Shown: positions 2,828 to 27,861 of the stretch, one piece after another | How the letters are laid out: each line of letters opens with the position of its first letter | How positions within the stretch are numbered: position 1 is the stretch's first letter | Source: Enhygromyxa salina | GTDB lineage: Bacteria; Myxococcota_A; Polyangia; Nannocystales; Nannocystaceae | NCBI RefSeq assembly: GCF_000737335.2 | Contig: NZ_JMCC02000022.1 | Span: forward strand, 30,242 to 70,241 | Direction of reading: 5' to 3' | Length of the DNA: 40,000 bases | Notes under the pieces: model-generated | The model's input: the letters and a program-made list of their open reading frames with translations, nothing else | What the model was told of the DNA's origin: nothing | Database searches by the model: none | Program-made: the position numbers and the translations under genes

Positions 2828-2828
2828 C

Positions 2829-6313: not shown

Positions 6314-9300
6314 GCTTTCGCAACTACGCGTGCTGGAAAGTCGATGACGCGACAGCAATGCTCCGCACCGAGGCTCTCGAGAGCTCTCGGGCGGTGTTCA
6401 TGGCCGTCCACTCGCCTATCCGCGATTTTCAGGTCGAGGGCGTGCTGGCGGGACTCCTCGATGAACGCAGCGAGACGGGGCTGTTGGATGCGCTCACGCG
6501 CCCGGACCACCGTCACCTGTTTTGTGTGGTCCAGGGTGAGCCTGGCTCGGGCAAGTCACATCTCATCCGTTGGCTGCGCTTTTGCTGGGAGAAACAGCGC
6601 AAGCAAGACCTGGTCTTGATGGTCCCCCGCAGCAACGGGAGTCTCGAGGGCGCCCTTCGGCACATGAAAGAGCGGCTCCCGGACCGCTACCAACATCTGT
6701 TTGCGGGTCTCGGTCAGGTGCAGAACACCACCTTGCAGGGCCGCGCGCGCGACTTCCACAGCAAGTTGGCCAACAGCCTCAGCCCCAACTACTTCTCCGG
6801 GGAGGCACCTGAACATGCCGAGTGGGCAGAGAAAAATCAGCTGAGTCGCCTCATCGGCCACCACCAAGTGATCGAGCAGTGGTCGGCTCCCCGGCGGATA
6901 CTCGAGACCCTCTCTGGTGGCTCGGAGCGCAACTCCCGGGTCGAGTCGTTCACGCTGCGAGACGTCCACGAACTCGCGCTGCTGCTTCGCTCTGTGCGGG
7001 ATCGGACGATCGGCCCCAAAGCCCTGCAGGCGCGCCGAAAATTCGAGCTGGAGTCTGCACAACTTGGCCCGCTCTTGGACCAGAATCTGGACGGATCCGT
7101 CGACGCGGCAGCGGCCCTCGCGGTTGCGCCCATGCTCGTTCGCCTGCGGGAAGCCCTGGATGCACGCTTTAATGCCGTCGTCCAGGATCTGGTCGGGGTT
7201 GGCCGCGATGGTTTGGTGCGAGCCTTTCGCCAGTTGCGCAAGCATCTCGCCAAGAGTGGTCAGCGACTCGTCTTGCTGCTTGAAGACATCACCAGCTTTC
7301 AGGGCGTGGACAAGCAGTTGCTCGATGTGCTCGTCGCCAAGAGCGAGACCGAGGAACACGGCGGGGAGCTGTGTGATCTGCTCAGCGTGGTGGGCATCAC
7401 GACGGACTTCTTCGATCAATCGATGCGAAGCTACGGCAACCTGCGAGAGCGCGTCTCGCTGCATGTGTATCTGGGCGACGCAACGGCCGGCCAGGCAGCG
7501 CAGAGCCTCTCGCTCACGGACTCTAGTGGTCGCCAGCGCTTCGCTATCCACTACCTGCGAGCCGTGCGGGCGGGAATCGACACGATCGAGCGCTGGGAGC
7601 AGAGCGGTCACGGAAAGCCGACCAACGCCTGCGTGGCCTGTCCACACCGCGGTCCCTGCCATCGTGCATTCGGCAGCGAGGACGGAGTGGGCTTTTACCC
7701 GCTCTCGCCTCGCGCCATCGATCGCATCTTCGAGTCACTGCGCGACCCCGCGGGCACCATGAGCCTGCGAACGCCCCGGGGCATGGTCCAAAATGTATTG
7801 TCCCCGCTGCTGCTGCACCCCGAGCGGCTGGAGAGGGGCGAGTATCCCCCGGCGAACCTCGAGGGCACCTACTTGCCCAAAGATGAGGGCTATCTGCTCG
7901 GACAAGTCGAGCGGATCCCGGCGATGTTGGACGACCCCGCCGATAGCGAACGCATGCGTCGCTTCATCGCGTGGTGGTCGTCCAGGGATCCTGGGGCACA
8001 GACCAGGCGCGATGCCCAGGGGCGACTGCTGTTTGCGGAGATCGCCAAGGAAGCCTACGAGGCCTTCGATCTGTGCTGGCCGGGTGAGCCCGTCGAGACC
8101 GAAGGAGAGGAACCTGACACCCCGGCTTTGATCGCGTTCGAGTCGAACGAATCTGCGCGCGCAGATGAGGTTCCCGAAGCAGACGCCGCTCCGGTTCCCT
8201 CTCCACCAGCACTTCCAAAGTCCCCGCGGGCCAAGGATGACAAGGGCACGAGCGCACCGCACAAGGTCAGCCGCACGCAGATGGACAAGCTCCGCACGGA
8301 GCTCAAAGGTTGGTTCGAGGGAGGCAGGGTGAGCGACGACAAGAAGTGGTCGTTGCTGCTGATGGAGGTTCTCAACACGCTTCCGTGGCGCAGCCTCGAC
8401 GTGCCCCACTGGCTTCAGCACAGGTTGTTCACGGACTCGACGGTCATGCTCGAGGGCTCGCGCAAGGCTAGTGTGCGGCACTTCGTGATCCCCCGAGTAG
8501 ACTGGGTTCGAGAGGGGCTGGATGGCTGGCTGGCCCTGCGAACCCAAAGTGGGGGCGAGGTCGAGTACCACCGCAAGCGCGTGGCTCGGTTTCTTCGCAG
8601 GTTGAATGGACTCGTGCTCGCCCATGTCGAGAGCAAGAGTTTGGCGGCGTCCGAGGGCGGCGTGTGGAACCCAGCCGGGACTGCCGCGCAAGCCCTGTTG
8701 GCCCGGGCCTGGCTGCAGGGCCGACTGCCAGAGGATGCGTCTTTGGCCAAGCGCTGGGAGATGATCCTGGTTGAGGATCAGGGGGCGGCGCTCAGCGCCG
8801 CCAACCATACCCCTGGGTGGCAGGAAGTGATTCGCAAGGTCGGACACTACCTGGGTGTCTTTCGGCAGTTCGTACGGGACTGGGTCCAGCTGAGCCTCAC
8901 CCCCGAGAAGGGAGACGACGGAATCGTCGATGCTGGCGCCATCGCTCCCGCGCTGGTGGCCTTTGGCCAGCGGCTCGCTCCAGATCTACCGCCACTCGAG
9001 CCCGTCCTTCCCAAGCAGCTGACCGAGTGGGTCTCAATCGCGGACGTGGGGCGAACCGTCCGCAAGATCATGCCGCTGCTTGCTCATCACGAGTTCAATC
9101 GCGTCAAGAAGGACATCGAACTTCTCGAGTTCGCATGCGATCGCCGAAGTCTCCCGCAGTACTTCGTCGAGGTCGGCCAGACGATCGAGCAACTCCGGGC
9201 GATGGACAATCGAGCACCCCAGGCTCGGATCGAGGAGTGGCATCGCGTTCGGCGCTTGCTGACAGACAAGAACATGCTCGAGCCCAGCGAGGGCAGTGGA

Positions 9301-9609
9301 CTGCGAAAGCTGGATGATTTTCTCGGCGACACCGATCCCGATGCTCGGGAGGCGTTGGAGAAGGCCGACCCCATCGACCAGTTGGCCTGGATCCTCAAGA
9401 GTCCCTACGACAACCTCGTCCTGATGGCCTCGCAGGTGGAGATCGTGCAAGCGATCCTCGTTCAGCTCTGGTCCTACGTGTCGACCCTGCTGCAGGAGTC
9501 TCCCGGCGACGACAGTGACGCCCCCGGAGCCCTCGACGCCGCAGGTACACGCCTGGGCTGCGCCGCCGAGCAACTAACCCGGGTGCTGACCAGCGAAGGG
9601 AAGTCGTGA
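6310..9609 (+). CDS. Large P-loop NTPase (1099 aa) in the DpdH position
   Basis: Walker A GEPGSGKS is at nt 6535-6558. A Walker-B-like LVLLLEDITSF lies about 250 aa downstream. There is a CxxC...C cluster (NACVACPHRGPC) and an acidic/Pro-rich linker (EPVETEGEEPDTPALIAFESNESARADEVPEADAAPVPSPPALP). It is translationally coupled on both sides. Confidence 0.7.
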   Translation: MSFRNYACWKVDDATAMLRTEALESSRAVFMAVHSPIRDFQVEGVLAGLLDERSETGLLDALTRPDHRHLFCVVQGEPGSGKSHLIRWLRFCWEKQRKQDLVLMVPRSNGSLEGALRHMKERLPDRYQHLFAGLGQVQNTTLQGRARDFHSKLANSLSPNYFSGEAPEHAEWAEKNQLSRLIGHHQVIEQWSAPRRILETLSGGSERNSRVESFTLRDVHELALLLRSVRDRTIGPKALQARRKFELESAQLGPLLDQNLDGSVDAAAALAVAPMLVRLREALDARFNAVVQDLVGVGRDGLVRAFRQLRKHLAKSGQRLVLLLEDITSFQGVDKQLLDVLVAKSETEEHGGELCDLLSVVGITTDFFDQSMRSYGNLRERVSLHVYLGDATAGQAAQSLSLTDSSGRQRFAIHYLRAVRAGIDTIERWEQSGHGKPTNACVACPHRGPCHRAFGSEDGVGFYPLSPRAIDRIFESLRDPAGTMSLRTPRGMVQNVLSPLLLHPERLERGEYPPANLEGTYLPKDEGYLLGQVERIPAMLDDPADSERMRRFIAWWSSRDPGAQTRRDAQGRLLFAEIAKEAYEAFDLCWPGEPVETEGEEPDTPALIAFESNESARADEVPEADAAPVPSPPALPKSPRAKDDKGTSAPHKVSRTQMDKLRTELKGWFEGGRVSDDKKWSLLLMEVLNTLPWRSLDVPHWLQHRLFTDSTVMLEGSRKASVRHFVIPRVDWVREGLDGWLALRTQSGGEVEYHRKRVARFLRRLNGLVLAHVESKSLAASEGGVWNPAGTAAQALLARAWLQGRLPEDASLAKRWEMILVEDQGAALSAANHTPGWQEVIRKVGHYLGVFRQFVRDWVQLSLTPEKGDDGIVDAGAIAPALVAFGQRLAPDLPPLEPVLPKQLTEWVSIADVGRTVRKIMPLLAHHEFNRVKKDIELLEFACDRRSLPQYFVEVGQTIEQLRAMDNRAPQARIEEWHRVRRLLTDKNMLEPSEGSGLRKLDDFLGDTDPDAREALEKADPIDQLAWILKSPYDNLVLMASQVEIVQAILVQLWSYVSTLLQESPGDDSDAPGALDAAGTRLGCAAEQLTRVLTSEGKS

Positions 9610-10319
9610 TGGCCGAGCCTGAGACCCTCTCACCCTTGCGCTCCTTGCAGGCGGCCGTGCAGGACGGCCGACTTGCGGCCGCGGTTCGCCGCCGAGAACA
9701 CGGCGCCGCTCTCGACAAGGCGTCGCGTGCCTTGGCGAGTTTCGGGGGGTCTGTTGATCGGATCGAGGAGCTGGTTCGCGTCGCGGCCACGGTCGTTACG
9801 CACATCGATGAAAACAGTCAGATCGTGCTGCGTAGCAAGCTCGACACGCTCGCGCAGAAGAGCCACACCCTCGTCGGCGAGATCACCACGGAGATCCTCG
9901 ACAATTCTTGGCGGCAGCTGGAAGAGATCGACGGCCTGACTAAAGACATCAGCATGCAACTGCAGCGAGCCTGGAACAGCCTGATCCAGGCCGAGTTCGC
10001 AACCCTCGCGCAACTCGGTGGTGCTTTGAAGATGATGAAGGCCGAGACCGAATTGGGTGAACGCATGCGAGTCATTGCCCATGACGCGTTAGCACTTGGA
10101 AGCCAGTTTCCCCCGAGCGAGACGGCACTGGAGGCACTGGCCAAGCACACTCAGGCCCGGAACGAGGTGCGCGACAGGTTATCGAAGTCCGGATCGGGGA
10201 TCAGCTCGTTTCTGCTCAAGGTCGCCGAAGGTCAGGCGACGCTGGCCGATTTGGATCAGGAGACGCTGGATTGGCTGCGCAAGCAGGGGGCCATGCAAGC
10301 GTTCGCGGTCCGCCTGTGA
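9606..10319 (+). CDS. Hypothetical 237-aa protein, predicted all-helical or coiled-coil, in the DpdI position
   Basis: Start is GTG 9606 or ATG 9609, overlapping the upstream TGA at 9607-9609. The composition is heptad-like and helical, with no recognisable motif. It is the last gene of the plus-strand operon, and its stop lies 8 nt from the stop of the convergent gene. Confidence 0.55.
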   Translation: MMAEPETLSPLRSLQAAVQDGRLAAAVRRREHGAALDKASRALASFGGSVDRIEELVRVAATVVTHIDENSQIVLRSKLDTLAQKSHTLVGEITTEILDNSWRQLEEIDGLTKDISMQLQRAWNSLIQAEFATLAQLGGALKMMKAETELGERMRVIAHDALALGSQFPPSETALEALAKHTQARNEVRDRLSKSGSGISSFLLKVAEGQATLADLDQETLDWLRKQGAMQAFAVRL

Positions 10320-10327: not shown

Positions 10328-13300
10328 TCAGCTCCATCCCAAAAATTCCGCCAGCCGAGTCAGCACCGTCCGGCTGACCGTCGCGTCCAGCATCTGCTGG
10401 GGGAACAGCGGTGACCCCGTGTGAAGACAGGCCTGACAGCCGTCGACGCAGAGTCGCGCGCTGAGCCGGTAAACCTGATCACCGAGTCGAGCATCCGCCT
10501 CCAGCGATCCTTCCTGCGCCGCATCCTCGAGTTCGAGGTAGCAGCGGCGAAGCTGAGCCCAGCGCTGGACGCTGGGATCTCCGCCGCGGGCGAGCGCGAC
10601 GACCCGTCCTACCAGTTCCCAAGCCGTGGGGTCGCGGTCCATCTCGGCGCTCAACTGTTCGCGCACGGTCCGGACTTCTTGCTGGAGACTCCGGTAGGAA
10701 AAGCGCTCGCCGCCGATGTCCTCGCTGTCATACAGCACCCGGACGACCGATTGCATGATGTTGGCGTCGTCCTCGGGGTCGAGACCCAGCACGCCGGCTA
10801 GCTCTCCGATTCGGTCGGCAGATATCGGATCCCTCAACGACCACGTGTTTGCGAGATCTGCATCCTCGAGTAATCGCTCGAGGACCTCGTCCTCGCGCGC
10901 ATTCGGACACTCGAACAGCGCACCGGCACGCAGTTCGCCGAACGCGATGTCCAGGGTCTCGAGGAAGGTTCGCGTGGTTCCGTCTCCGTGCTCGCCGTCT
11001 TCGCAGACCACGATGACGTCATCGGCATCTTCACCGAACTGAATAGGCAGCTTGGTGTGAAACAGTACCCGTCGCGGATCGCCGGCACCGTGGATCGCGA
11101 ATAGCTGCTGCAGACGCATCGCTAGACCGTGCAGAGCGAGGGATCGCAGGTACTGGCGAAACCCCTGGTCGTCCTTGCAACCCGCGATTGCCTGAACGAG
11201 GAAACCCTGCATGCCGGCCAGGTGTGGTTTGGCCAACTCTTCAGCAATTCGAACGATCCGCTGCTCGGTGAGCAATGGGTGCAAAGACAGGTATTGAGTG
11301 TAGGTCTCGAGCAGCAACTGGCGAAAGTGGCCCACGTCCCAACGCCGAAGCAGCCGCTGGAGCTTTTCGTTGGTGTTCTCGAACGCGCGGGCGGTAACCA
11401 GCAGATCAGCGAGTTCGCGGGCCTGGAAGCGGTTCATACCGGCCTGCGGTGCGCCACTGAGAACGAGGAAGCGAAAGTACTGTCCTCGCAACCAGCGCCC
11501 ATCGCGGGTGCCCTCGATCCTGTCGAACTCATGTTCCACGAAACGATCCAATGTGTCTTGATCGAGGCGCAGCCGGACGCCCTCGGTGCTGACCTGATAG
11601 CCGTAGAGTTGAACGGCCGGCGCGGGTGCGCCACGCTTGTGGTGGGCCGCGTGTTGCTGGGCTTCGACGAAGGTCTGCGTGTGGATGAACTCCTCGCGTT
11701 TGAACGAATTGACATCGACGATGATGCGAGACTCGGCGCCCCAGTAGATCCGGGACACAGTCAAACCGGTGCCTTGTTCGGCGGCTCCGCTACCCTGGTA
11801 GGCGTAGAGTCCCGTCGTGAGCGGCTCGAGGGCGCCCACGGCGCGGGGCTGGCCCTGGTCCCGGCGGGCATTGCAGATGATGAAGCCGCTGAGGCTGCCC
11901 TGACTCTTGGGGTTGATCCCAGGATGCTCCTCGGCTGACGAGGTGAGGTCGACGAGCCGCGTCGTGGACCTGTCGTAGCCGACGAAGGGAGTCCACCCCG
12001 CACCGTCGAACCTGCCGAGCTTCTCGAGCCGGAGTTCGCTCGGACGAATTGCCGCGAGCACGACGTTGTCTCCGATCTCCTGGTGGAGGTAGCGAGGAAG
12101 CGCGAGCCGAAGTGCCGTCAGGCCACCGGGTATCGGTTCGAAGGTTTCGTGTTGCGAGCGGTGATCAACCGCAGCCCAGGGGGTGCGACCGCTGTGTGGG
12201 GTGACCCAGTGGGTGACGCCGAATCCGTAGCGACGCGTGGCCGTGCCCGGAGCACAGGTGGCCAGGGCAACGCCGATATCCTCTTCCTTACCAACCGGAT
12301 CATTGTTGTCGTCGATGAAGCTCACCCGGACCGCCGGCAGGTTAATGGTTTCGAATAGCTGGGTGGGCACTTCGGGGATCTGAGCGACCCAGCAGGCCAG
12401 ACCGGTTGTCGCAGGATTGCTGATCTTCGGCCTGACCTGTGCCCAGAGCGCCTGCAGATCCGTGATGCCCATATCGACGAAGACTCGCTCGCCGAAAATA
12501 TCGCGGATCATGATCATGGCTTCTGCGAATACGTGTGCGGGCAAATTCGGCGACGGGTCTTGTCGATAGTGGTGATTCCGCGCCGCGGCGTCCAGGAGCG
12601 TGGCGATGAGTTGACCGCGGCGAACGAAGAAGTTGCGCATGTTCAGGGGCACGCGAAAGCTCGCCGCCTCGAGCATGCGTTCGGGTCGTCGAAAGAACCA
12701 CGTGTCCCGCGGGCTGTAGACCGAGAGGGTAACGCCGGTCACGGGACGATCGTCCGCGCCGCGACCACCGCGCCCCTTTCGCTGCACGAAGCTCGCCGCG
12801 TTCAGGGGCGCATAGTGCTGAAACACGAGGCTCATCTCGGGGTCGTCGAAACCGACCTCGAGCGAGGACGTGGCGAATACCACGTCGCTGCTTCCGATCA
12901 TGTCATCCACGCGTTCCTTGGTCCCGGAGAACACCGGGCTTTGACACACGGAGAGACTCTGGCCGGCTTCATATGCACCATTGGCGGTCTCCTGGTGGGG
13001 GTCCCGGGCCGCGAAGAACCAGCACTCCCCATCGACGAATCGGCTGCAGGTCTCGGGGTGGCCGCAGCACTCGCGGCGGGGCGTGGACTCCGGGGGAACA
13101 GTGCCGTACCGACTCGTACGCAGCCGAGCGAGGCGATTGTTCCGCTCCGCGTCGATGTAGTCACCGTGCAAGCGTTTGACTTTGTCGATGGAGTCGAGGA
13201 ACGCGAGCGCTCGATAGCCCCCACGATTGCCCCGACGGCGTCGCATCCCATGGGCCAGACACATCAACGACTGGATCGTGGTCGAGGCGCCGGCCACATC

Positions 13301-16300
13301 CTTGCCGCGCGACTCAATCTCGGGCTGGACGAAGTAAAAGTACTCGCGCGAGCGTGGATTGGGCTCTCGCTCCTCGGGTGTGGGAGAGATTTGCGTCACT
13401 GGCCCGCAGCCGCACAACTCTTCCCAGACACGGCCGGGCTCCCCGAGGGTGGCGCTCATCCCGACAGCGAGGGGGCGGTCTTGCGGGTCGCGGCTGTTGA
13501 TGCGCAACCGAGCCAGCAGCCGACGTAGCGCATAGCCGACCTGGGCGCCTTGAATGTGCGAGTAGATATGGATCTCGTCAGCGAGCACGGCGCGTGGAGG
13601 GAGAACACCCCTGGCGTCTCCGAACAGGCGACCACGCCATTGGCTGTGAAGCCAGCTGTGCAGAGATTCGGTGGTCGTGATGAAGATGCTGGTGTCGACT
13701 TTGCCCAGGCTCCGCTTGGATCCGACCCAGCCCGCAAAAGACCAGCCGCAACGCCGACAATGCAGGTGATCCGGCTGGTGAGTGTCCGGCGTGGGTGTCA
13801 GCAGCAAGTCCCCCCCACACTCGCCTTCGGGGCAAGGGAACAGCGGAAAGGCATAGCGCGATCCTACGCGCTTCCAGTGGGCGCCGAGTTCCCCATCGAA
13901 GTTACTGGGGACCTCGCTGTTTTGCACTCCCAGGGTCAGTGTGGGCATCCCGTCTTGTCGGGCCAGGGCAGCGAGATAGCCGGCGAGCCGTTGTGCCTGG
14001 TTGTTGGCGAGGCGGATACGCGGATAGACCAGCACGCAACGAGTCCCGGTCACGCCCTCGAGCGCATCGATGGCTGAGGCAATGATGAGAGGCAGAGCGG
14101 CGGCCTCGGTCTTGCCCGATCCGGTGTCAGCGGTAATCACGAACGAGCGAGTCTCGCTACGTCCGAACCAGGCTGGAAGCACCTCCAACAGAGCGCGAGA
14201 CTGAAAGCCGGTCAGCAGCGGGTCGTCGACCATCCAACGCTCGCTGAGCATCTGACCGGCGCCACGCAGGACCCGGACCGTGGTTGGATCGCTTCCGAGG
14301 AGTTCCTCGAGCGTCGTCAGCGTTCGGCTCAGTGGCTGGTTGCGGGTGGGCTTGGAGCGATCAACGAAGCGCACCTTGGTCGCGCGCACCAAGAAGGGTC
14401 GGTTTCCGGCGTCGTCTTCTCGGAAGCGCTGCTTGATGTAGCGAAGCTCGCGGGCAAGCTCGGCCGCGCGGCTGCGCATGCGGCCATCGTCGAGGCTCAT
14501 CAGCCATCCGTCTTGACGCAGGCGCCGGAGTACGGGGGCGAGCTCGGTGGCCGATCGGTGGGTGATGCTGGCGAGCTCGGCAGGGTGAACCCAGGCCTCG
14601 TAGACCCCAAAGTTGATGCGCCCCTGCTCGAGATTCTCGAGACTGTTGAGCACCTCGAAGTCAGATTCGGAGGGGACCTCGGGCAGAGGCAGGCGCTCGA
14701 CAGGCTTCGCCTCCTGTTGCCGGGCCACCGTCAGGTCGAGGGTGCGCCGTCCTTTGTCGTTGGCTCCCCATTCCAGCACACCTTCGACAACCAGCGCATC
14801 GACGAGGGGCTCGAGCCGGTCCTCACCATCCAGGTCGAGCCAACAAAAGTGATCGCGAACGATGAAGTAAAAGGGGGCGTACCTGCCATGACGCAGCGCA
14901 CCGAGCAGGCCTTGGATGTGGTTGCGGACCGACTCGAGATCACAGGGGAGCGGCCGCTGAGCGGGATCTCGGGGCTTGGCCGTCCAAAACGGGCCGTAGG
15001 GGCCATCCTTGAGTCGAATCACGACCATACCCAGCTCGAACAATTTCAGCAGCCCTTCGTGGATCTCCTGCTGAGTCCTCGACAGCGCCTTCGTCAGGGC
15101 AAAGCTCGCCGCTGATTTATGCTTGCTGGTCTTCGCTAGCCGACGGATCGCATCGAGCAATTCCGTGAGTACTGGGTCGAGCGCGCCTTCGTCGGGTGGG
15201 GGCTCGGACGGGACTTGTGTCGCGTCGACCTCGAGATTGGCTGCGTCGTCAAATCGTCGGACTCGCACGGTCAGCGGAACCGAGGCACCCGCGGGCCCCA
15301 TCACCGACCAGGTCGCCACCTCTTGAGTCTCGTACACGAAGTTTCGCAGCACCTGGGCCTGCTCGAACAGCTCGTCGTCTTCAGGCACCACGCTGAGCAA
15401 CTGTCGCGCCACTACCAGGATGAGCTTGGTGCGTGCGCGTGTGATCGTGACGTTGAAGCGCTCCGGACTGAAGATGAAGCTCGCCTCCATCTTGGCAAAC
15501 TCGGGATCGGAGACGGTGTAGCAAGCAACAATCGCGTCTCGCTCTCGCCCCTGAATACGATCGACGGTCTCGACGACGCAGTCCTCGCCAAACCCCGTGG
15601 CGCGGATCAGCGTACGAAGCAGGGCGTTTTGGGCCCGGTGCGGCGAGACCACTGCGAGCCGTTGATTCCAGAAGGTTTGCGACGAGAGTTCGTCCTCGCG
15701 GTCCGGGGGGACCATGCGCGCCCGCAGCCGAGCCACGAGCCCCGCCGCGATACGCGCCTCAAACTCGTTGGAGGTTCCGCAGAGTGGGCCGCTGTACAGT
15801 AGTATGCAGACCGGGTTGTCCGGGTCGAGAGCGTGCCGCTCCCAATCTTGCAGACCCAGTTCCCAGCTCTCATGAAGCGCGAGGCGCTTGCTCTTGACCT
15901 CGGCGACGGACTCGTAACGGCCTTCGTAGAACACCTGCGCGGGGTATTCGGACAGCAGCTGGTTGAGCCGGAATGTCTCCGTTAGCGGAAATACCTCGAT
16001 GCCGGCGTGCTTGAGAAAGCCGTAGAGGCTCGAGCCCAGGCGTAGGCCATCGATTTCACGTTCGTGGGTCTCGCGGACTGGAGCGAGTTGCTTGTCATCA
16101 CCGGCGACGAGCACCCGTCCCTGCGGCGCCAGCCCAGCGATGCTGAGCAGCCCCTGACTGATGACCATCTGCGAGGCCTCGTCGATGCACACGAGATCGA
16201 AGAGCGGGGCCGTCGGGCCCTGGGCCTCGGCGAGCCTACCTCGCTCGATCGCCCGAAATAGTCCCCAGCCGGTTGCGCCGATCACCACATACTCGGAATT

Positions 16301-16771
16301 GAGGGCCTCTCGGAGGTCTTCCGGCTTAATGACCTCCACACCGTCGGGAAGAGACTGGTCGGGCTCGTGGCCAAGCCAGATCATGCGAATTGGGCCCCTG
16401 GCATGGATCGCTCGCTTCCTCACCGCCTCGAGCAAGTTGGCGATCGAGTTGCGCGTGAAGCCGGTGACGTAGACTCGACATGGCCGCCCGGCCGCTCGAC
16501 GACCTTCGAGATAGCCCAGCGCCATCCACGATAGGGCGAATGTCTTGCCGGTACCTGGGGGCCCGAGGATCAGCGAAGTGCGGTGTTTGGCGATGCCCTC
16601 CCAACCGCGCTGCTGAGCTTCACGCAGAGAGAACTCGGACTGGTTGCCGATGATGGCTTCGCGGGCGAAGGCCAGCCCGGCTAGCCAGTCTCGCTGCGAT
16701 TCCTCTGATACGTCGTGGGCAAACTCCAGTGGCCGACGCAGGAAGGTGCGCAAGTCGTCTCGAACCGTCAT
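10328..16771 (-). CDS. Giant dual-helicase protein (2147 aa): N-terminal SF1 Upf1/DNA2-like helicase, then an SF2 DEAD/DEAH (DEIH) helicase with Zn-ribbons and a DUF1998/MrfA-like C-terminal Cys cluster; DpdJ-like
   Basis: SF1 part: Walker A GPPGTGKT (nt 16541-16564), VCIDEASQM, VAGDDKQLAPV, VDRIQGRERDAIV, NVTITRARTKLILV. SF2 part: TGSGKT (nt 14108-14125, aa 883-888), DEIH (nt 13568-13579), SATL, FATSSLEVGFDDPEMSLVFQHYAPLNAASFVQRKGRGGR. Zn-ribbon-like CPEGECGG...HCRRCGW and ECCGHPETCSRFVDGEC are present. The C-terminal motif CVDGCQACLH lies at about nt 10420-10450. Confidence 0.85.
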   Translation of the reverse strand: MTVRDDLRTFLRRPLEFAHDVSEESQRDWLAGLAFAREAIIGNQSEFSLREAQQRGWEGIAKHRTSLILGPPGTGKTFALSWMALGYLEGRRAAGRPCRVYVTGFTRNSIANLLEAVRKRAIHARGPIRMIWLGHEPDQSLPDGVEVIKPEDLREALNSEYVVIGATGWGLFRAIERGRLAEAQGPTAPLFDLVCIDEASQMVISQGLLSIAGLAPQGRVLVAGDDKQLAPVRETHEREIDGLRLGSSLYGFLKHAGIEVFPLTETFRLNQLLSEYPAQVFYEGRYESVAEVKSKRLALHESWELGLQDWERHALDPDNPVCILLYSGPLCGTSNEFEARIAAGLVARLRARMVPPDREDELSSQTFWNQRLAVVSPHRAQNALLRTLIRATGFGEDCVVETVDRIQGRERDAIVACYTVSDPEFAKMEASFIFSPERFNVTITRARTKLILVVARQLLSVVPEDDELFEQAQVLRNFVYETQEVATWSVMGPAGASVPLTVRVRRFDDAANLEVDATQVPSEPPPDEGALDPVLTELLDAIRRLAKTSKHKSAASFALTKALSRTQQEIHEGLLKLFELGMVVIRLKDGPYGPFWTAKPRDPAQRPLPCDLESVRNHIQGLLGALRHGRYAPFYFIVRDHFCWLDLDGEDRLEPLVDALVVEGVLEWGANDKGRRTLDLTVARQQEAKPVERLPLPEVPSESDFEVLNSLENLEQGRINFGVYEAWVHPAELASITHRSATELAPVLRRLRQDGWLMSLDDGRMRSRAAELARELRYIKQRFREDDAGNRPFLVRATKVRFVDRSKPTRNQPLSRTLTTLEELLGSDPTTVRVLRGAGQMLSERWMVDDPLLTGFQSRALLEVLPAWFGRSETRSFVITADTGSGKTEAAALPLIIASAIDALEGVTGTRCVLVYPRIRLANNQAQRLAGYLAALARQDGMPTLTLGVQNSEVPSNFDGELGAHWKRVGSRYAFPLFPCPEGECGGDLLLTPTPDTHQPDHLHCRRCGWSFAGWVGSKRSLGKVDTSIFITTTESLHSWLHSQWRGRLFGDARGVLPPRAVLADEIHIYSHIQGAQVGYALRRLLARLRINSRDPQDRPLAVGMSATLGEPGRVWEELCGCGPVTQISPTPEEREPNPRSREYFYFVQPEIESRGKDVAGASTTIQSLMCLAHGMRRRRGNRGGYRALAFLDSIDKVKRLHGDYIDAERNNRLARLRTSRYGTVPPESTPRRECCGHPETCSRFVDGECWFFAARDPHQETANGAYEAGQSLSVCQSPVFSGTKERVDDMIGSSDVVFATSSLEVGFDDPEMSLVFQHYAPLNAASFVQRKGRGGRGADDRPVTGVTLSVYSPRDTWFFRRPERMLEAASFRVPLNMRNFFVRRGQLIATLLDAAARNHHYRQDPSPNLPAHVFAEAMIMIRDIFGERVFVDMGITDLQALWAQVRPKISNPATTGLACWVAQIPEVPTQLFETINLPAVRVSFIDDNNDPVGKEEDIGVALATCAPGTATRRYGFGVTHWVTPHSGRTPWAAVDHRSQHETFEPIPGGLTALRLALPRYLHQEIGDNVVLAAIRPSELRLEKLGRFDGAGWTPFVGYDRSTTRLVDLTSSAEEHPGINPKSQGSLSGFIICNARRDQGQPRAVGALEPLTTGLYAYQGSGAAEQGTGLTVSRIYWGAESRIIVDVNSFKREEFIHTQTFVEAQQHAAHHKRGAPAPAVQLYGYQVSTEGVRLRLDQDTLDRFVEHEFDRIEGTRDGRWLRGQYFRFLVLSGAPQAGMNRFQARELADLLVTARAFENTNEKLQRLLRRWDVGHFRQLLLETYTQYLSLHPLLTEQRIVRIAEELAKPHLAGMQGFLVQAIAGCKDDQGFRQYLRSLALHGLAMRLQQLFAIHGAGDPRRVLFHTKLPIQFGEDADDVIVVCEDGEHGDGTTRTFLETLDIAFGELRAGALFECPNAREDEVLERLLEDADLANTWSLRDPISADRIGELAGVLGLDPEDDANIMQSVVRVLYDSEDIGGERFSYRSLQQEVRTVREQLSAEMDRDPTAWELVGRVVALARGGDPSVQRWAQLRRCYLELEDAAQEGSLEADARLGDQVYRLSARLCVDGCQACLHTGSPLFPQQMLDATVSRTVLTRLAEFLGWS

Positions 16772-19020
16772 CCGGCCCCCTCACTCAGGTAGCGCAGGAG
16801 GGTTTCCATGCGAGCTGTGTTGACGTCGACATGACCCTTGTCCAGGAACCAGCCAGCGGTCGGTGTGTCCCGCATCAGTCGGCGCATGGTCTGGCTCGTC
16901 CAGGCTTTCTTCCAGATCTTCACGCGCAACCGACTGGGATCGGCGCCGGACAGCAACTCGACCGTGCATTCGGGCCAGCGCGAAGGGTCCATGCGCAGGT
17001 CCGGGTCGTCGTCGGTGAGGATTAGGCCCAGGCTACCCGGTGAGATCTCGGCCTGGCGGCTCTCAGGCGGCACCAAAAAGTCCAGGATTGCGCCCCCACT
17101 CCGATTTTTCGCTTCACGAAGCTCGAGATTGGCGTAGCAGCGCAATCGCTCTCGGCGTTCCTCGGACGGGCGGGCCAGATCGATCAGCGCGCCGAGACGC
17201 TCCGCTCGACTTTGAAGTAACTCCTGGGCGAGCAGCACGTCGAGGTCGATGGCTTCGAGCGGGTGAAACTGCTCTTGAAAGCGAAACGGCGGCTTGCGCA
17301 GGCGCAAGAAATCGTGGCCCGACTGCGCGTTGTCGTCGAGTATCCACTGACAGAGGCTCTGCATCGCGCGGAGTCGAGCGATCGCATCCTGTTGCGTGGC
17401 TTCGACCCACTGAGGCTTGTCGCCGAGTTGTCGCATCACGTCGATGGACAGGCGTGCGGAGAAGGGCCGTGTGAAGGGCGGCCCTGGAAGATACGGGCTC
17501 TTCAATGGAGGTGTCGCCTCGGCCAGGGCTCGGCTTACCCGCGCGAGGTCGTAGGAGACCTTGGCCGGAAGCACGTACAGCTGCTCTATCACGCTGCGCA
17601 AGGCACTAGCCGGCAAGTGATGGGCCCCGCGATACTCAGGCTCGGGTGCGCGGACTTCCTCTGGTGGAAACAGGCGCACGAGATGAATGAGGCCCGAACG
17701 AATATCGCTGTCGTCGAGGTGAGTGGCGAGAGTGTCGCGGAGGTCGTTTGCCTCCGACGGTTCGTAGACGAAGATGTGCATGCGCAGGCCCTCCGTAGTA
17801 GGGAGACGCTGGTTGTGCTCGTGGAGCTCTTGCAGGACATCGATGAGGCCACGCAGCACGCGGGTGAGCGCCGGCAATTCATCTGTAGGCCGAGTCACTA
17901 CCTCGACCACCGGTGGCCTGGCCCGCTTGCCGCCTACAAGACAACCGATGGTCACAAGGTGAGCGGCGACCGGGTCCCGATCCACGACGAGGAAGATAGG
18001 CACGTCGATTTGTGGCGGCATCAACCAGGTGTGGTGTTCGGGTAGGCGGCACCACTGCCTCGAGAGCAACGCCTCAGCCCTGTTCTTGAGCAGCTTGCCT
18101 CGGGTGCGCAGCGTCCAGGTGTCATCGCCCAGGTGAGACGCGCGGGCGACAGCGCCGAGTGTTCGCAGACCATTACGATGAAGCGCGGCCTTGGACTGGT
18201 GGGAGAGTCCCGGTATTGCGGATATGTCCCAGTCTTCCCGAGGCCGATCGTCAGCGATGGCCTTGTCGCAATGCTGCAACCACTTACACTGCTCGCATTT
18301 GAAGTAGAGATGAAAGAAAGTCTGGTCTGACCCGCTGCCGATCTTTGTCTGGCTGATGGAACCGAGTTGGCGGCGAAAGAAGTCGCGCAATAGCTCCTCG
18401 TGGCTGCGGAGATCAAACAGACCTCTCTCCGCCTCCCATAGCGGGCCTCCGTCCGCGCCGATAGACCAGATGTTGGCCTGACGATGGATCGGCGGCTCAT
18501 TGATTCCCAGTGAAGCGAATACTCCGCGCAACATCAGTGCGTAGAAAGCGACCTGTGCGCGATGATACTGGGTCGGGCGCCGGGTGTGTTTAACGTCGAT
18601 AATTCTGAGGCACCGCTGCTTCCCCTCGCCCACCCACTCCATGAAATCCGGTAGGCCAGAGCGTATGGAGACGTGCTCAGGGAGTTGAAGATCGCGTCGC
18701 AAGGATGGAGTCTCATCGAGCTTGGCCTGGTAGATGAGCCTCGCTGGATGTTCTCCGCGCAAGAATGCGGCGGTCAGCCCCGGGGGCACGTGAAGACTCC
18801 CACCGTTCGGGCGCAGGATGGACTCGCCCCGCTCGCGCAGTCGTCGGAGTACGTCTTCCTCGAAACGGACGCCCTCCTCCCTACGGATGCTGCGGTCGTC
18901 GACCTCGTGCACGGGGACGGCGTCCCTGACCTCACGCGGAAGGGTCGCGTAGATCAACCTGCGCTCACAACGATACTGAAACCAATCCTTGATGTCGCTC
19001 GCGCGGATTTCCATTTTCAT
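16768..19020 (-). CDS. PD-(D/E)xK nuclease, RecB/Cas4-like, resembling the TM0106 family (750 aa); candidate effector nuclease
   Basis: The N-terminal third carries GLPDFMEW...CLRIIDVKHTRRPTQYHRAQVAFYALML (D...DxK...QxxxY; IIDVK at nt 18589-18603), followed by the Cys cluster CEQCKWLQHC. Its stop overlaps the start of the 2147-aa gene (ATGA at 16768-16771). It is the first gene of the minus-strand operon. Confidence 0.65.
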   Translation of the reverse strand: MKMEIRASDIKDWFQYRCERRLIYATLPREVRDAVPVHEVDDRSIRREEGVRFEEDVLRRLRERGESILRPNGGSLHVPPGLTAAFLRGEHPARLIYQAKLDETPSLRRDLQLPEHVSIRSGLPDFMEWVGEGKQRCLRIIDVKHTRRPTQYHRAQVAFYALMLRGVFASLGINEPPIHRQANIWSIGADGGPLWEAERGLFDLRSHEELLRDFFRRQLGSISQTKIGSGSDQTFFHLYFKCEQCKWLQHCDKAIADDRPREDWDISAIPGLSHQSKAALHRNGLRTLGAVARASHLGDDTWTLRTRGKLLKNRAEALLSRQWCRLPEHHTWLMPPQIDVPIFLVVDRDPVAAHLVTIGCLVGGKRARPPVVEVVTRPTDELPALTRVLRGLIDVLQELHEHNQRLPTTEGLRMHIFVYEPSEANDLRDTLATHLDDSDIRSGLIHLVRLFPPEEVRAPEPEYRGAHHLPASALRSVIEQLYVLPAKVSYDLARVSRALAEATPPLKSPYLPGPPFTRPFSARLSIDVMRQLGDKPQWVEATQQDAIARLRAMQSLCQWILDDNAQSGHDFLRLRKPPFRFQEQFHPLEAIDLDVLLAQELLQSRAERLGALIDLARPSEERRERLRCYANLELREAKNRSGGAILDFLVPPESRQAEISPGSLGLILTDDDPDLRMDPSRWPECTVELLSGADPSRLRVKIWKKAWTSQTMRRLMRDTPTAGWFLDKGHVDVNTARMETLLRYLSEGAG

Positions 19021-19203
19021 CGTGGCAGTTCACGCCTCTGCGCGAAGTTTCGCCAATAATACGAGTTCTTTCTGAGTGTGTCTCCTGGGTTCACAACCGT
19101 TAGCAACAGATTGACGCACGTTTGCCATGACGCTGGACCAAACGGCCCACTCGTCAGGGCTCGACGCGTCCGGATACAGCCCAGTTTCTCAACCACTTGA
19201 TCT
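19021..19203. promoter_or_regulatory. Divergent intergenic control region between the nuclease/helicase operon (-) and the folE2-dpdA-dpdB operon (+)
   Basis: This 183-nt non-coding gap is the only sizeable one in the island and is noticeably AT-richer than its surroundings (for example ccaataatacgagttctttctgagtgtgt). It contains TTGACG at about 19110 and two gttcac words. I could not place convincing -35/-10 pairs. Confidence 0.5.
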
Positions 19204-20025
19204 ATGGTACGAAACCCGGCTATGCAGGACGTCCAGGGCCTACCAGACGACCGAGAAATCCCGATCGACCGCGTCGGCGTCGCGGGTCTCAACCACCCGA
19301 TCGTCGTCCTCGACCGCCGCTCGGAGAAGCAGCGGACCGTGGGAGCGTTCACGATGTCCGTTTCGCTGCCCCGGGAGCAGAAGGGCACGCACATGAGCCG
19401 GTTCGTGGAGGTCCTCAACGACCACCACGGAGAAGTGACGATGCGCACGGTTCCAAAGATCTTGCGAGATCTCCAGGATCGGCTTGGCGCATCCTCCGCA
19501 CAGATTGAAGTCACGTTCCCCTACTTCCTCGAGCGCGCGGCGCCGGTGAGCGGGGCGACGGCGCTCATGGACTACTCGTGCGCGTTCATCGGTGAGCTTC
19601 GCGAGGACCACGATGATTTCGTCCTCCGCGTGCGGGTGCCAGTGACCAGCCTATGCCCTTGCAGCAAGGCTATCTCGGAGCGAGGTGCTCACAATCAACG
19701 GGGCTACATCACGATGTCCGTTCGGACGAACACCGACAGTTCGGGAGATCCGCAGCTCGTGTGGATCGAGGAGCTGATTCAGGTCGCCGAGCAGTCTGCG
19801 TCGGCTCCCGTATATCCGTTGCTCAAGCGTCCGGACGAGGCCCACGTGACCGTGCAAGCGTACGACAATCCAGTCTTCGTCGAGGACATGGTTCGCAACG
19901 TCGCTCGGCGACTGCAGGACGACCCACGAGTTTACTGGTTCGAGGTCCACGCCGAAAACCACGAGAGCATCCACAACCACTCGGCCTTCGCTCAGGTCAC
20001 GTGGTCTCGCACCGAGAATCAATGA
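19204..20025 (+). CDS. folE2: GTP cyclohydrolase IB (FolE2/GCYH-IB), the first step of 7-deazaguanine (preQ0) and folate synthesis
   Basis: N-terminus reads DVQGLPDDREIPIDRVGV. The metal-site motif is SLCPCSKAISERGAHNQRGY (CPCSK at nt 19654-19668). The length of about 270 aa is typical. An alternative start is ATG 19222. The stop overlaps the next start (ATGA at 20022-20025). Confidence 0.85.
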   Translation: MVRNPAMQDVQGLPDDREIPIDRVGVAGLNHPIVVLDRRSEKQRTVGAFTMSVSLPREQKGTHMSRFVEVLNDHHGEVTMRTVPKILRDLQDRLGASSAQIEVTFPYFLERAAPVSGATALMDYSCAFIGELREDHDDFVLRVRVPVTSLCPCSKAISERGAHNQRGYITMSVRTNTDSSGDPQLVWIEELIQVAEQSASAPVYPLLKRPDEAHVTVQAYDNPVFVEDMVRNVARRLQDDPRVYWFEVHAENHESIHNHSAFAQVTWSRTENQ

Positions 20026-20960: not shown

Positions 20961-20962
20961 CC

Positions 20963-22243: not shown

Positions 22244-22247
22244 GTCC

Positions 22248-23372: not shown

Positions 23373-23477
23373 CAGCGCGGGCCACAGGCTGCGAAACAAC
23401 AACGCGATGACGCCGACGACGATGGCGTCCCCAATGATCAATCGTCTCCGCCCACCTCCACGGCGCCCCCGGAAGCG

Positions 23478-24602: not shown

Positions 24603-24632
24603 CTATCTTGCGCTCGAATTTCAGCTCGGGAT

Positions 24633-25595: not shown

Positions 25596-25647
25596 GCGCG
25601 CCCAGGATAGCCCAAGCGCAACACGGATCGGCTATGATCGCGGCCCC

Positions 25648-27795: not shown

Positions 27796-27861
27796 TCCGC
27801 TCCGCGCATTGACCCGGCCACCAGAGCCCAGGCGAGGTATCAGCTCTGGTACCTTGCTGAT

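What the first reader, a model, noticed from the sequence alone, without database searches (positions are those of the whole stretch)
10328..16771. 2147-aa single polypeptide fusing an SF1 and an SF2 helicase with several Zn-ribbons and a DUF1998-like tail
Two complete motor cores are visible in one ORF. The N-terminal core is Upf1/DNA2-like SF1 (GPPGTGKT, DEAS, QGRERD, TRAR). From about aa 880 there is a DEIH-box SF2 core (TGSGKT, DEIH, SATL, QRKGRGGR). The SF2 core is interrupted and followed by Cys4-type ribbons and ends in CVDGCQACLH, the kind of C-terminal cluster seen in DUF1998/MrfA-type helicase partners (DrmB in DISARM). A helicase with DUF1998 next to a nuclease resembles the DISARM DrmA/DrmB/DrmC logic. 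Adding an SF1 motor to it is unusual, and it suggests dual-polarity translocation or a sensor-plus-motor arrangement.
Basis: partly seen in the sequence, partly recalled or inferred. Interest (0 to 1): 0.7.

Follow-up and report, generated by a model that had tools for sequence, protein, structure and literature searches.

The report
Dual-helicase DpdJ of a Dpd system
The 2147-residue ORF is real and is DpdJ, a helicase of a known 7-deazaguanine DNA restriction-modification (Dpd) island, in a widespread but undescribed long form that carries half of a DNA2-like nuclease-helicase on its N-terminus, with the other half encoded by the overlapping upstream gene.

Summary
The minus-strand ORF 10328..16771 encodes 2147 aa with a complete SF1B core and a complete DEIH-box SF2 core, both invariant across 110 homologs.

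The protein is DpdJ. It matches PADLOC model PDLC02895 end to end and sits in a full Dpd island (dpdE-F-G-H-I, dpdJ, dpdC-A-B) of Enhygromyxa salina.

The SF2 half is a YprA/DISARM-clade helicase. Its tail folds most like MrfA and DrmB but matches no DUF1998 sequence profile.

- The upstream 750-aa gene overlaps dpdJ by 4 nt and encodes a Cas4/AddB/DNA2-type Fe-S nuclease.
- Nuclease plus SF1 head together equal a single-chain nuclease-helicase of about 1250 aa found elsewhere.
- One Dpd locus fuses nuclease, SF1 and YprA in a single 3312-aa protein.
- No PLD nuclease DpdK was detected in the window, and a compact relative leaves no room for one. A short-form locus does keep DpdK.

Best reading (inferred): a RecBCD-like bipolar helicase-nuclease that degrades unmodified DNA.

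Known family, undescribed architectural variant, moderate interest.

The parts
10328..16771 (-). dpdJ, long form, 2147 aa: SF1B head, winged-helix linkers, YprA-type SF2 core, OB-CON-DUF1998-like canopy
   Evidence: PADLOC PDLC02895 DpdJ matches aa 1-2140 to profile positions 1-2107 of 2112, 1716 bits. 100% identical to an Enhygromyxa salina protein named 'DNA helicase'.
15332..16639 (-). SF1B (Upf1/DNA2-like) helicase core, aa 45-480. Walker A K76, DEASQ 197, GDxxQLxP 224-231, QGRERD 407, TRAR 444.
   Evidence: Pfam AAA_11/AAA_12. PDB profile hit to DNA2 residues 625-1035, E 2e-31. Foldseek top hits Dna2. Motifs invariant in 110 homologs.
14672..15331 (-). Linker found only in the long form, aa 481-700: a beta hairpin and two winged-helix-like modules
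   Evidence: AF2 model of aa 1-870, pLDDT 80.9, secondary-structure pattern. Matched only by long-form DpdJ in the representative search.
14192..14671 (-). Start of the canonical DpdJ region, aa 701-860: winged helix plus helical N-terminal region
   Evidence: NCBIfam NF041067 DpdJ position 1 aligns at aa 708. Short-form DpdJ matches start at aa 690-765, mostly 706. The YprA paper describes a MukF-like wHTH at the canonical N-terminus.
12572..14191 (-). SF2 YprA-type helicase core, aa 861-1400. TGSGKT K887, DEIH 1065, SAT 1106, QRKGRGGR 1330.
   Evidence: Pfam DEAD and Helicase_C. PADLOC DpdJ, DrmA and DruE hits. PDB profile hits to Lhr and YprA/MrfA. Motifs invariant.
13748..13834 (-). Cys4 module 1 inserted in RecA1: C980, C985, C1005, C1008
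   Evidence: 98-100% conserved in 110 homologs. Also present in short-form DpdJ.
13022..13069 (-). Cys4 module 2 in RecA2: C1235, C1236, C1242, C1250
   Evidence: 100% conserved in 110 long-form homologs. Three of the four are kept in short forms.
10331..12571 (-). C-terminal canopy, aa 1401-2147: OB-like beta region, helical insertions, and invariant C1955, C2108, C2112, C2115
   Evidence: AF2 model pLDDT 87.1, pTM 0.82. Foldseek top two hits are MrfA 6znp_A and DrmB 7s9v_B. Cys invariance. No Pfam DUF1998 hit.
16768..19020 (-). 750-aa nuclease gene, overlapping dpdJ by 4 nt (ATGA). Cas4/AddB/DNA2-type Fe-S PD-(D/E)xK nuclease, then a helix-hairpin-helix-like stretch (by eye, not tool-tested) and a conserved C-terminal half.
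   Evidence: PADLOC Cas4 hits, which are weak. NCBIfam TM0106 RecB-like nuclease. C18, D125, D142, K144, Q156, Y160 and C242-x2-C245-x5-C251 are invariant in 51 homologs. It lies directly upstream of long dpdJ in 52 loci, with a 4-nt overlap in 42.
14..2827 (+). dpdE (SNF2/BrxHII-like helicase), 5' end cut by the window edge
   Evidence: PADLOC DpdE PDLC02843. NCBIfam NF041062, 338 bits.
2727..5414 (+). dpdF (RecQ-like DEAD helicase). ORF as listed; the true start is probably downstream.
   Evidence: PADLOC DpdF, 476 bits. NF041063, 467 bits.
5177..6313 (+). dpdG. ORF as listed; the family match starts at aa 79.
   Evidence: NF041064, 86.9 bits, above the cutoff of 80.
6310..9609 (+). dpdH (STAND/BrxC-like ATPase)
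   Evidence: PADLOC DpdH, 496 bits. NF041065, 260 bits.
9606..10319 (+). 237-aa helical protein in the dpdI position, convergent with dpdJ
   Evidence: No family hit. Homologs sit after dpdH in about half of the related loci.
19653..20960 (+). dpdC. The family match covers aa 126-432 of the listed ORF.
   Evidence: PADLOC DpdC PDLC02817, 217 bits.
20903..22243 (+). dpdA (DNA-guanine transglycosylase)
   Evidence: NF041059, 542 bits, cutoff 200.
22236..23372 (+). dpdB (DGQHR/ParB-like ATPase)
   Evidence: NF041060, 468 bits, cutoff 300.

Best explanation
What it is (shown): the ORF is the long form of DpdJ, the YprA-family SF2 helicase of a Dpd (7-deazaguanine in DNA) restriction-modification island. 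Its first 480 or so residues are an SF1B helicase. That helicase, together with the translationally coupled upstream 750-aa Fe-S PD-(D/E)xK nuclease, amounts to a split copy of a single-chain DNA2-like nuclease-helicase.

How it most likely works (inferred): DpdA, DpdB and DpdC mark host DNA with dPreQ0/dADG. On unmarked DNA, the nuclease and long DpdJ act as one complex.
- The SF1B head tracks one strand 5'->3', as DNA2, RecD2 and Upf1 do.
- The YprA core tracks the other strand 3'->5', as MrfA and SftH do.
- The OB-CON-DUF1998-like canopy clamps ssDNA.
- The Fe-S nuclease cuts the unwound strands.

This would be a RecBCD/AddAB-like bipolar helicase-nuclease. It would take the role that the PLD nuclease DpdK is assumed to play in canonical Dpd systems.
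For: Identity:
- Full-length PADLOC DpdJ match.
- All other dpd genes are in the window.

Both motors look active:
- All catalytic motifs are invariant in 110 homologs.

The SF1B head is nearest to DNA2:
- By sequence profile and by fold.

The SF2 half is YprA-like:
- PADLOC DrmA and DruE hits.
- A PDB profile hit to YprA/MrfA, 6znp.
- The tail's fold hits MrfA and DrmB.
- JGI names some homologs 'YprA (DUF1998 family)'.

The nuclease is linked to the SF1 head:
- A nuclease homolog lies directly upstream in 52 of 52 informative loci. The stop and start overlap by 4 nt in 42 of them.
- The nearest non-Dpd relatives of the SF1 head are proteins of about 1250 aa. Their N-terminal 750-790 aa are homologous to the nuclease over its full length.
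- A 3312-aa protein in a bona fide Dpd locus fuses nuclease, SF1 and YprA.

Nuclease catalytic and Fe-S residues are invariant.

No PLD gene turned up where it was looked for:
- The window's eight dpd-flank ORFs gave no DpdK hit.
- The compact locus L007 leaves no room for one by coordinates.
- The short-form locus L069 has DpdK directly after dpdJ.

Polarity:
- 3'->5' for the YprA homolog SftH comes from the paper read.
- 3'->5' for MrfA and 5'->3' for SF1B helicases are established knowledge, not tested here.
Against: - There are no biochemical or genetic data for any Dpd restriction protein in the literature I could search.
- Polarity, complex formation, nuclease activity and specificity for unmodified DNA are all inferred.
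- The tail matches MrfA and DrmB only weakly (TM 0.19-0.30, E about 1e-2) and matches no DUF1998 sequence profile.
- Upf1-like helicases can act on RNA.
- Many related loci lack a detectable dpdE, so system composition varies.
- Absence of DpdK across the long-form loci was not scanned systematically. It rests on the window, one compact locus and one short-form comparison.
- The Zn and Fe-S sites are inferred from Cys patterns only. I could not read model coordinates.
Confidence: 0.6

Rival explanations
1. Sensor plus motor. Only one ATPase drives translocation: the DNA2-like SF1B head working with the nuclease. The YprA core with its canopy acts as a DNA-end or modification-status sensor that licenses the nuclease. 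This would resemble DrmAB activation in DISARM or HamB control of HamA in Hachiman.
For: YprA canopies change conformation on ssDNA binding, and DrmA is autoinhibited, according to the paper read. The Hachiman abstract describes a sensor helicase that restrains its nuclease. Three winged-helix modules lie between the two motors.
Against: All SF2 catalytic motifs, including motif VI, are invariant. This shows ATP hydrolysis is under selection but does not separate sensing from translocation. No trigger-loop equivalent was identified.
Confidence: 0.25
2. The SF1 head acts on RNA, as Upf1, Sen1 or Mokosh MkoA do. For example, it might clear transcripts or R-loops on invading DNA, with only the YprA core acting on DNA.
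For: The PADLOC second-tier hits of the head are MkoA and MkoC. Upf1, Sen1 and IGHMBP2 are close by fold and by profile.
Against: The best sequence and fold matches are to DNA2, a DNA enzyme. Its obligate partner is a Cas4/AddB/DNA2-type DNA nuclease. The system marks DNA.
Confidence: 0.06
3. DpdJ and the nuclease serve modification or repair rather than restriction. For example, they might open or process DNA so that DpdA/DpdB can insert preQ0.
For: In several loci the nuclease and dpdJ lie in one string with dpdC-A-B, as in L007 and L072. Stand-alone nuclease-SF1 relatives sit in housekeeping contexts.
Against: The abstract of the 2023 NAR paper says genetic studies implicated dpdA, dpdB and dpdC in modification. 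The GATOR-GC paper assigns dpdD-K to the restriction operon. DpdJ's relatives DrmA and DruE belong to defence systems.
Confidence: 0.05
4. The long ORF is an artefact: a frameshift or misassembly joining two genes.
For: None found. SF1-only ORFs of 656-661 aa with real stop codons do exist in two metagenome contigs.
Against: The same 2100-2170-aa architecture occurs in at least 120 protein clusters and about 60 genomes, including complete chromosomes and plasmids. The linker aa 481-700 is conserved.
Confidence: 0.01

Closest known systems
Canonical DpdJ (Salmonella/Enterobacter type; NCBIfam NF041067, PADLOC PDLC02896)
   Same: Homologous from aa 708 onward: winged helix, YprA-type SF2 core with a Cys4 module in RecA1, and membership of a dpdA-K island.
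   Different: - It has no SF1B head and no aa 1-700 region.
- It scores only 329 bits against the equivalog cutoff of 800, and identity to the Enterobacter dpdJ is 28%.
- The paper reports that the canonical form has lost the DUF1998 Cys4 cluster, has a single Zn module and ends in an ALBA-like domain.
- This protein keeps the four C-terminal Cys and has a second Cys4 module.
- The canonical partner nuclease is the PLD enzyme DpdK.
Short-form deep-branching DpdJ (cyanobacteria, Symbiobacteriaceae; loci L062-L070)
   Same: Same YprA module. It shares Cys4 module 1, three Cys of module 2, and all four C-terminal Cys.
   Different: It starts at the equivalent of aa 706 or so. In L069 it is followed by PLD DpdK, and no homolog of the 750-aa nuclease is present.
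DISARM DrmA/DrmB/DrmC
   Same: YprA-family helicase with an OB-CON-DUF1998 canopy and an adjacent nuclease. DpdJ lies in the DISARM-like clade. DrmB is the second-best fold hit of the tail.
   Different: - Here the canopy is fused to the helicase, not a separate DrmB.
- The nuclease is a PD-(D/E)xK Fe-S enzyme, not PLD.
- The other locus genes are all assigned to Dpd families. DNA marking is through DpdA/B/C.
- DISARM has no SF1B motor.
DNA2, and bacterial single-chain nuclease-SF1B proteins of about 1250 aa (e.g. P0156, P0180)
   Same: Same domain order: an Fe-S PD-(D/E)xK nuclease followed by an SF1B helicase. The helicase is the best PDB match by sequence and by fold. The bacterial proteins are homologous to nuclease plus head over their full length.
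   Different: - Here the module is split at the nuclease/helicase boundary.
- The helicase half is covalently joined to a second, SF2, motor.
- Stand-alone relatives are not in PADLOC as defence proteins.
- At least one stand-alone relative sits in a housekeeping context.
RecBCD / AddAB / AdnAB
   Same: Works-like comparison only. The parts list is the same: a 3'->5' motor, a 5'->3' SF1B motor, and a RecB-family nuclease (Fe-S type as in AddB).
   Different: No homology for the 3'->5' motor, which here is SF2 YprA rather than SF1A. The two motors are in one polypeptide. Bipolar action is untested.
BRIGADE Type I (haloarchaeal Dpd-like systems)
   Same: [quoted passage not shown]
   Different: There the DNA2-like protein is a separate intact gene, and a small PLD nuclease is almost always present. 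Those systems are archaeal. Here the DNA2-like module is split and half-fused to DpdJ, in bacteria.

Membership tests
Dpd system (7-deazaguanine DNA restriction-modification) | DpdA DNA transglycosylase and DpdB ATPase are present | tested here: met
   NF041059 at 542 bits (cutoff 200) and NF041060 at 468 bits (cutoff 300).
Dpd system (7-deazaguanine DNA restriction-modification) | DpdC and restriction-side genes dpdE-dpdH lie next to dpdJ | tested here: met
   PADLOC DpdC, DpdE, DpdF, DpdG and DpdH all hit. Of the NCBIfam equivalogs only DpdG passes its cutoff.
Dpd system (7-deazaguanine DNA restriction-modification) | PLD-family nuclease DpdK | tested here: not met
   The eight ORFs scanned on the dpdE-to-dpdJ side gave no DpdK hit, and the three ORFs called on the other side are dpdC, dpdA and dpdB. 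An Fe-S PD-(D/E)xK nuclease is present instead. DpdK is present in the short-form locus L069.
Dpd system (7-deazaguanine DNA restriction-modification) | dPreQ0/dADG in genomic DNA and restriction of unmodified DNA | not testable with these tools
   Needs LC-MS/MS of E. salina DNA and transformation or phage assays.
DpdJ | Full-length match to a DpdJ family model | tested here: met
   PADLOC PDLC02895, aa 1-2140 to profile positions 1-2107 of 2112, 1716 bits.
DpdJ | NCBIfam equivalog NF041067 at or above its cutoff of 800 bits | tested here: not met
   328.7 bits, covering aa 708-1402 only. RefSeq names homologs 'AAA domain-containing protein'.
YprA/MrfA family (SF2 helicase with DUF1998) | SF2 RecA1/RecA2 core with a DExH box | tested here: met
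   Pfam DEAD and Helicase_C. Motifs invariant. PDB profile hit to YprA 6znp, E 1e-7.
YprA/MrfA family (SF2 helicase with DUF1998) | C-terminal OB-CON-DUF1998 canopy fold | tested here: inconclusive
YprA/MrfA family (SF2 helicase with DUF1998) | Match to the Pfam DUF1998/MrfA_Zn profile | tested here: not met
   No hit at E<=10 on the C-terminal 790 or 290 aa. A PDB profile search with A2 found no MrfA or DrmB.
YprA/MrfA family (SF2 helicase with DUF1998) | Four conserved Zn-binding Cys in the tail | tested here: met
   C1955, C2108, C2112 and C2115 are invariant in 110 long forms and 6 short forms. Metal binding itself was not tested.
SF1B Upf1-like helicases (DNA2, Upf1, Sen1, IGHMBP2) | Motifs I, Ia, II (DEAxQ), III (GDxxQLxP), IV, V and VI, plus the fold | tested here: met
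   Motifs seen and their conservation. Pfam AAA_11 and AAA_12. DNA2 is the top hit by profile and by fold.
SF1B Upf1-like helicases (DNA2, Upf1, Sen1, IGHMBP2) | 5'->3' translocation | not testable with these tools
   Needs polarity assays.
DNA2-like nuclease-helicase | Fe-S PD-(D/E)xK nuclease N-terminal to an SF1B helicase in one polypeptide | tested here: not met
   Here they are two genes with a 4-nt overlap. They are homologous to single-chain proteins of about 1250 aa and are joined in the triple fusion P0160.
DISARM | Separate DrmA and DrmB, a PLD DrmC, and a DrmMI/MII methyltransferase | tested here: not met
   Helicase and canopy are fused. The nuclease is PD-(D/E)xK. The remaining locus genes all match Dpd families, including DpdA/B/C.

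The most novel reading that the evidence does not exclude
The nuclease and long DpdJ form the first known covalently fused SF1B-SF2 bipolar motor. It would be a RecBCD-like machine built from unrelated parts that processively destroys DNA lacking 7-deazaguanine. The modified base would be read during translocation as a stop or 'self' signal, much as Chi is read by RecBCD. This would identify the long-sought Dpd restriction effector.
Probability: 0.3. Interest if true: 0.7.

Novelty: new variant of a known kind. Interest (0 to 1): 0.45.

Why it matters
How Dpd systems restrict unmodified DNA is unknown. [quoted passage not shown]

This variant has a clear parts list: an Fe-S nuclease, an SF1B motor expected to run 5'->3', and a YprA motor expected to run 3'->5'. 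All three are obligately linked, and in one case they are fused in a single chain. That gives a concrete and testable candidate for the effector.

It also shows a DNA2-like module substituting for the PLD nuclease. Finally, the curated equivalog models and RefSeq annotation leave this widespread restriction half unnamed.

Tried and rejected
- Pfam DUF1998 on the tail at E<=10: no hit.
- PDB sequence-profile search with the tail alignment A2: only chance hits.
- PDB sequence search with the 750-aa nuclease: nothing.
- Reading model coordinates to check that the four Cys cluster in space: models are not exposed to the sandbox.
- Thiaville et al. 2016 (the original dpd paper): not held.
- The 165-aa ORF 19017..19514(-), upstream of the nuclease: no hits, and an Arg/Ser/Trp-rich off-frame-like composition. 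Judged spurious.
- SF1-only ORFs P0122 and P0128 as evidence for a three-gene variant: the stop codons are real, but the contigs end 12-39 nt later. Left unresolved.
- My first sub-queries for the DpdJ middle, SF2 and C-terminal regions were out of frame. Those columns are void. Only the SF1, nuclease and other Dpd columns were used.
- tRNA scan for an integration site: none in the window.

Full report
**1. The observation**

The ORF is on the minus strand, 10328..16771, and encodes 2147 aa without internal stops.

I aligned 110 full-length homologs at 42-65% identity.
- The catalytic residues of SF1 motifs I, II (DEASQ), III (GDxxQLxP), V (QGxERD) and VI (TRAR) are 95-100% conserved.
- The catalytic residues of SF2 motifs I (TGSGKT), II (DEIH), III (SAT) and VI (QRKGRGGR) are 95-100% conserved.

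Three Cys4 sets are invariant:
- C980/C985/C1005/C1008, inserted in RecA1.
- C1235/C1236/C1242/C1250, in RecA2.
- C1955/C2108/C2112/C2115, in the tail. C2077 is not conserved.

The fusion is not an artefact.
- The best 120 protein clusters are nearly all 2100-2170 aa and cover about 100% of the query. The top hit is an identical Enhygromyxa salina protein.
- About 60 genome loci carry the same architecture. They span Myxococcota, many Alphaproteobacteria, Gamma- and Betaproteobacteria, Lentisphaeria, Acidobacteriota, Planctomycetota and Desulfarculus.
- Four plasmids or megaplasmids also carry it.

**2. What it is**

PADLOC model PDLC02895, named DpdJ, matches aa 1-2140 against profile positions 1-2107 of 2112 at 1716 bits.

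The window holds the rest of a Dpd island:
- dpdE (cut by the window edge), dpdF, dpdG and dpdH, followed by a 237-aa protein in the dpdI position, all on the plus strand.
- dpdJ and an upstream 750-aa gene on the minus strand.
- dpdC, dpdA and dpdB on the plus strand.

DpdA and DpdB pass their curated NCBIfam cutoffs. A phosphofructokinase gene at 23478..24602 marks the end of the island.

The curated DpdJ equivalog NF041067 (Salmonella type, 1482 positions) aligns only from aa 708 and scores 329 bits against a cutoff of 800. RefSeq accordingly calls these proteins 'AAA domain-containing protein' and calls the neighbouring nuclease 'hypothetical protein'.

**3. Anatomy of the protein**

*aa 45-480: SF1B helicase.*
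- Pfam AAA_11 and AAA_12 hit this region.
- A family profile finds the DNA2 helicase domain first in the PDB (5eax, E 2e-31), then Upf1/NAM7, IGHMBP2 and Sen1.
- An AF2 model of aa 1-870 (pLDDT 80.9) hits Dna2 5ean/5eaw/5eax first (E 3.5e-22, 22% identity, rmsd 4.4 Å over about 519 alignment columns), then Sen1, ZNFX1, Upf1 and IGHMBP2.

*aa 481-700: linker.* The model shows a beta hairpin and two winged-helix-like modules. Only long-form DpdJ proteins match this stretch.

*aa 701-860: start of the canonical DpdJ region.* A third winged helix and a helical N-terminal region. This is where canonical and short-form DpdJ begin. The YprA paper describes a MukF-like wHTH at this position.

*aa 861-1400: YprA-type SF2 core*, carrying Cys4 modules 1 and 2.

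*aa 1401-2147: the tail.*
- The AF2 model is good (pLDDT 87.1, pTM 0.82). It has a long beta region, large helical insertions, and the four invariant Cys.
- Against the whole PDB, the only credible Foldseek hits are MrfA, the 'DUF1998 helicase' (6znp_A, prob 1.00, E 6.7e-3), and DrmB of DISARM (7s9v_B, prob 0.85, E 2.1e-2). The next hit has prob 0.07.
- TM-scores are low (0.19-0.30).
- No DUF1998 sequence profile is matched.

So the 'DUF1998-like tail' is supported by fold rank and Cys pattern, not by sequence membership.

[quoted passage not shown] Consistent with that, short-form DpdJ from cyanobacteria and a Symbiobacteriaceae MAG share all four tail Cys with this protein.

**4.

The 750-aa ORF 16768..19020(-) overlaps dpdJ by 4 nt (ATGA).

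Its sequence has these features:
- C18.
- A PD...(D/E)xK core: D125, D142 and K144.
- A QxxxY motif: Q156 and Y160.
- C242-x2-C245-x5-C251.

All of these are invariant in 51 homologs. This is the pattern of the Fe-S 'iron-staple' nucleases Cas4, AddB and DNA2 (established knowledge). PADLOC Cas4 hits and an NCBIfam TM0106 RecB-like hit agree weakly.

A homolog of this nuclease lies directly upstream of long dpdJ, on the same strand, in all 52 informative loci. The stop and start overlap by exactly 4 nt in 42 of them. None is found in the short-form loci.

I searched aa 1-700 against 1.84 billion representative proteins.
- The top hits are the long DpdJ family.
- The next tier (E 1e-70 to 1e-40) is proteins of about 1200-1450 aa with the SF1 domain at their C-terminus.
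- The N-terminal 750-790 aa of those proteins are homologous to the nuclease over its full length. For example, nuclease aa 4-750 aligns to P0156 aa 9-773 at E 4e-38, and about 45 such proteins were found.

So the nuclease (750 aa) plus the SF1 head (about 480 aa) equals one single-chain nuclease-helicase with DNA2's domain order. In this island it is split at the domain boundary, and the helicase half is fused to DpdJ.

P0160 (3312 aa) carries nuclease, SF1 and DpdJ/YprA in one chain. It sits in a bona fide Dpd locus with QueD, QueC, FolE2, DndB-like and TGT-like genes.

A stand-alone relative, P0156, lies among housekeeping genes. These stand-alone proteins are not catalogued as defence proteins: their best PADLOC hit is just the SF1 segment of the DpdJ model.

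**5. Relation to the PLD nuclease**

Canonical Dpd pairs DpdJ with the PLD nuclease DpdK.
- In the short-form Nostoc locus L069, a 171-aa DpdK follows dpdJ directly.
- The window's dpd-flank ORFs gave no DpdK hit.
- In the compact Bryobacteraceae locus L007 (dpdC-A-B-nuclease-J, convergent with I-H-G-F-E), the gene coordinates leave no room for a PLD gene.

The Fe-S nuclease plus SF1B module therefore appears to take DpdK's place. I did not scan all long-form loci for DpdK.

**6. Mechanism (inferred)**

DpdA, DpdB and DpdC make the dPreQ0/dADG mark (literature). dpdD-K are the restriction genes.

SF1B enzymes move 5'->3' (established knowledge). The YprA relative SftH moves 3'->5', and the same polarity for MrfA is established knowledge. 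A covalent SF1B-SF2 pair tightly coupled to a RecB-family nuclease has the parts list of RecBCD, AddAB and AdnAB.

I therefore propose a bipolar helicase-nuclease that degrades unmarked DNA. Identity is near-certain (about 0.95). The bipolar mechanism is perhaps 0.4. The main rival is a sensor-plus-motor arrangement like DrmAB or HamAB (0.25). RNA targeting, a role in modification, and artefact are all unlikely.

**7. Novelty**

The family is known, and even the long form has a PADLOC model.

In the papers I could search, I found no description of the SF1B fusion, of the split DNA2-like module, or of the replacement of DpdK.
- The YprA preprint analysed an enterobacterial DpdJ. Its text has no 'SF1' or 'superfamily 1' hits. 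It notes only that haloarchaeal BRIGADE Type I systems are often accompanied by a separate DNA2-like protein.
- The GATOR-GC survey grouped Myxococcota apart from the phyla with complete restriction operons. That fits these divergent genes being missed by Salmonella-type queries.

Verdict: a new variant of a known kind, of moderate interest.

Noticed in passing
window 32819-39265 (-): A second giant ORF (2148 aa) is a bacterial alpha-2-macroglobulin. It hits bMG3, MG2, bMG6, A2M_BRD, A2M and bMG10, has a lipoprotein-like N-terminus and a CSEQ thioester-like motif. It is unrelated to the Dpd island, and the near-identical length is a coincidence.
   Followed up: partly
window 1-23400 versus 23400-30000: The Dpd island has 60-66% GC. 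The adjacent region, which starts with the housekeeping PFK gene, rises to 67-74%. That fits horizontal acquisition. No tRNA gene is in the window.
   Followed up: partly
L072 7686-17624: P0160 is a 3312-aa single polypeptide fusing the Fe-S nuclease, the SF1B helicase and the DpdJ/YprA helicase. It lies in a metagenomic Dpd locus with QueD, QueC, FolE2, two DndB-like genes and a TGT-like gene.
   Followed up: yes
L074 2930-4915; L075 2425-4395: SF1-only ORFs of 656-661 aa follow a nuclease gene with the 4-nt overlap. They end in real stop codons at the equivalent of DpdJ aa 660, but both contigs end 12-39 nt later. This could be a three-gene variant or an assembly break at a variable site.
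   Followed up: partly
L069 6195-8408: In a Nostoc short-form Dpd locus, a UvrD/GajB-like SF1A helicase (737 aa) lies about 1.5 kb upstream of dpdJ, with a 339-aa gene between them. SF1 plus YprA pairing may recur in another form. ARMADA Type II has a GajB-like ArmD.
   Followed up: no
L073 8001-11969: A stand-alone 1322-aa nuclease-SF1B relative (P0156) lies among FeoAB, SHMT and TonB-receptor genes. This is not a defence context, which suggests a housekeeping origin for the module.
   Followed up: partly
window 9606-10319 (+): A 237-aa helical protein in the dpdI position has no family hit in Pfam, PADLOC or NCBIfam. Homologs follow dpdH in about half of the related loci.
   Followed up: partly
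window 19017-19514 (-): This 165-aa ORF upstream of the nuclease looks spurious: Arg/Ser/Trp-rich and without hits. The region 19021-20020 is probably the divergent promoter region between the nuclease-dpdJ operon and dpdC-A-B. dpdC probably starts near 20022.
   Followed up: partly
L003-L060 (table): Most alphaproteobacterial long-form loci show no dpdE hit within 10 kb, whereas most Myxococcota and several other lineages do. The composition of the restriction operon varies among long-form systems.
   Followed up: no
window 27862-30739 (+): Downstream of the island are a CotH-kinase-like protein with chitobiase/Fn3-associated domains (27862-30051), an overlapping ORF with a phage tail collar domain (29612-30739), and a beta-lactamase-family protein at 31203-32798.
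   Followed up: no
PDB entries 9tu7_Y (2108 aa) and 9wae_A (1970 aa): These recently solved giant 'DEAD/DEAH box helicase' and 'Helicase' chains hit only the SF2 motif regions of the profile. They are probably other defence YprA relatives such as DruE. They have a different architecture from DpdJ despite the similar length.
   Followed up: no
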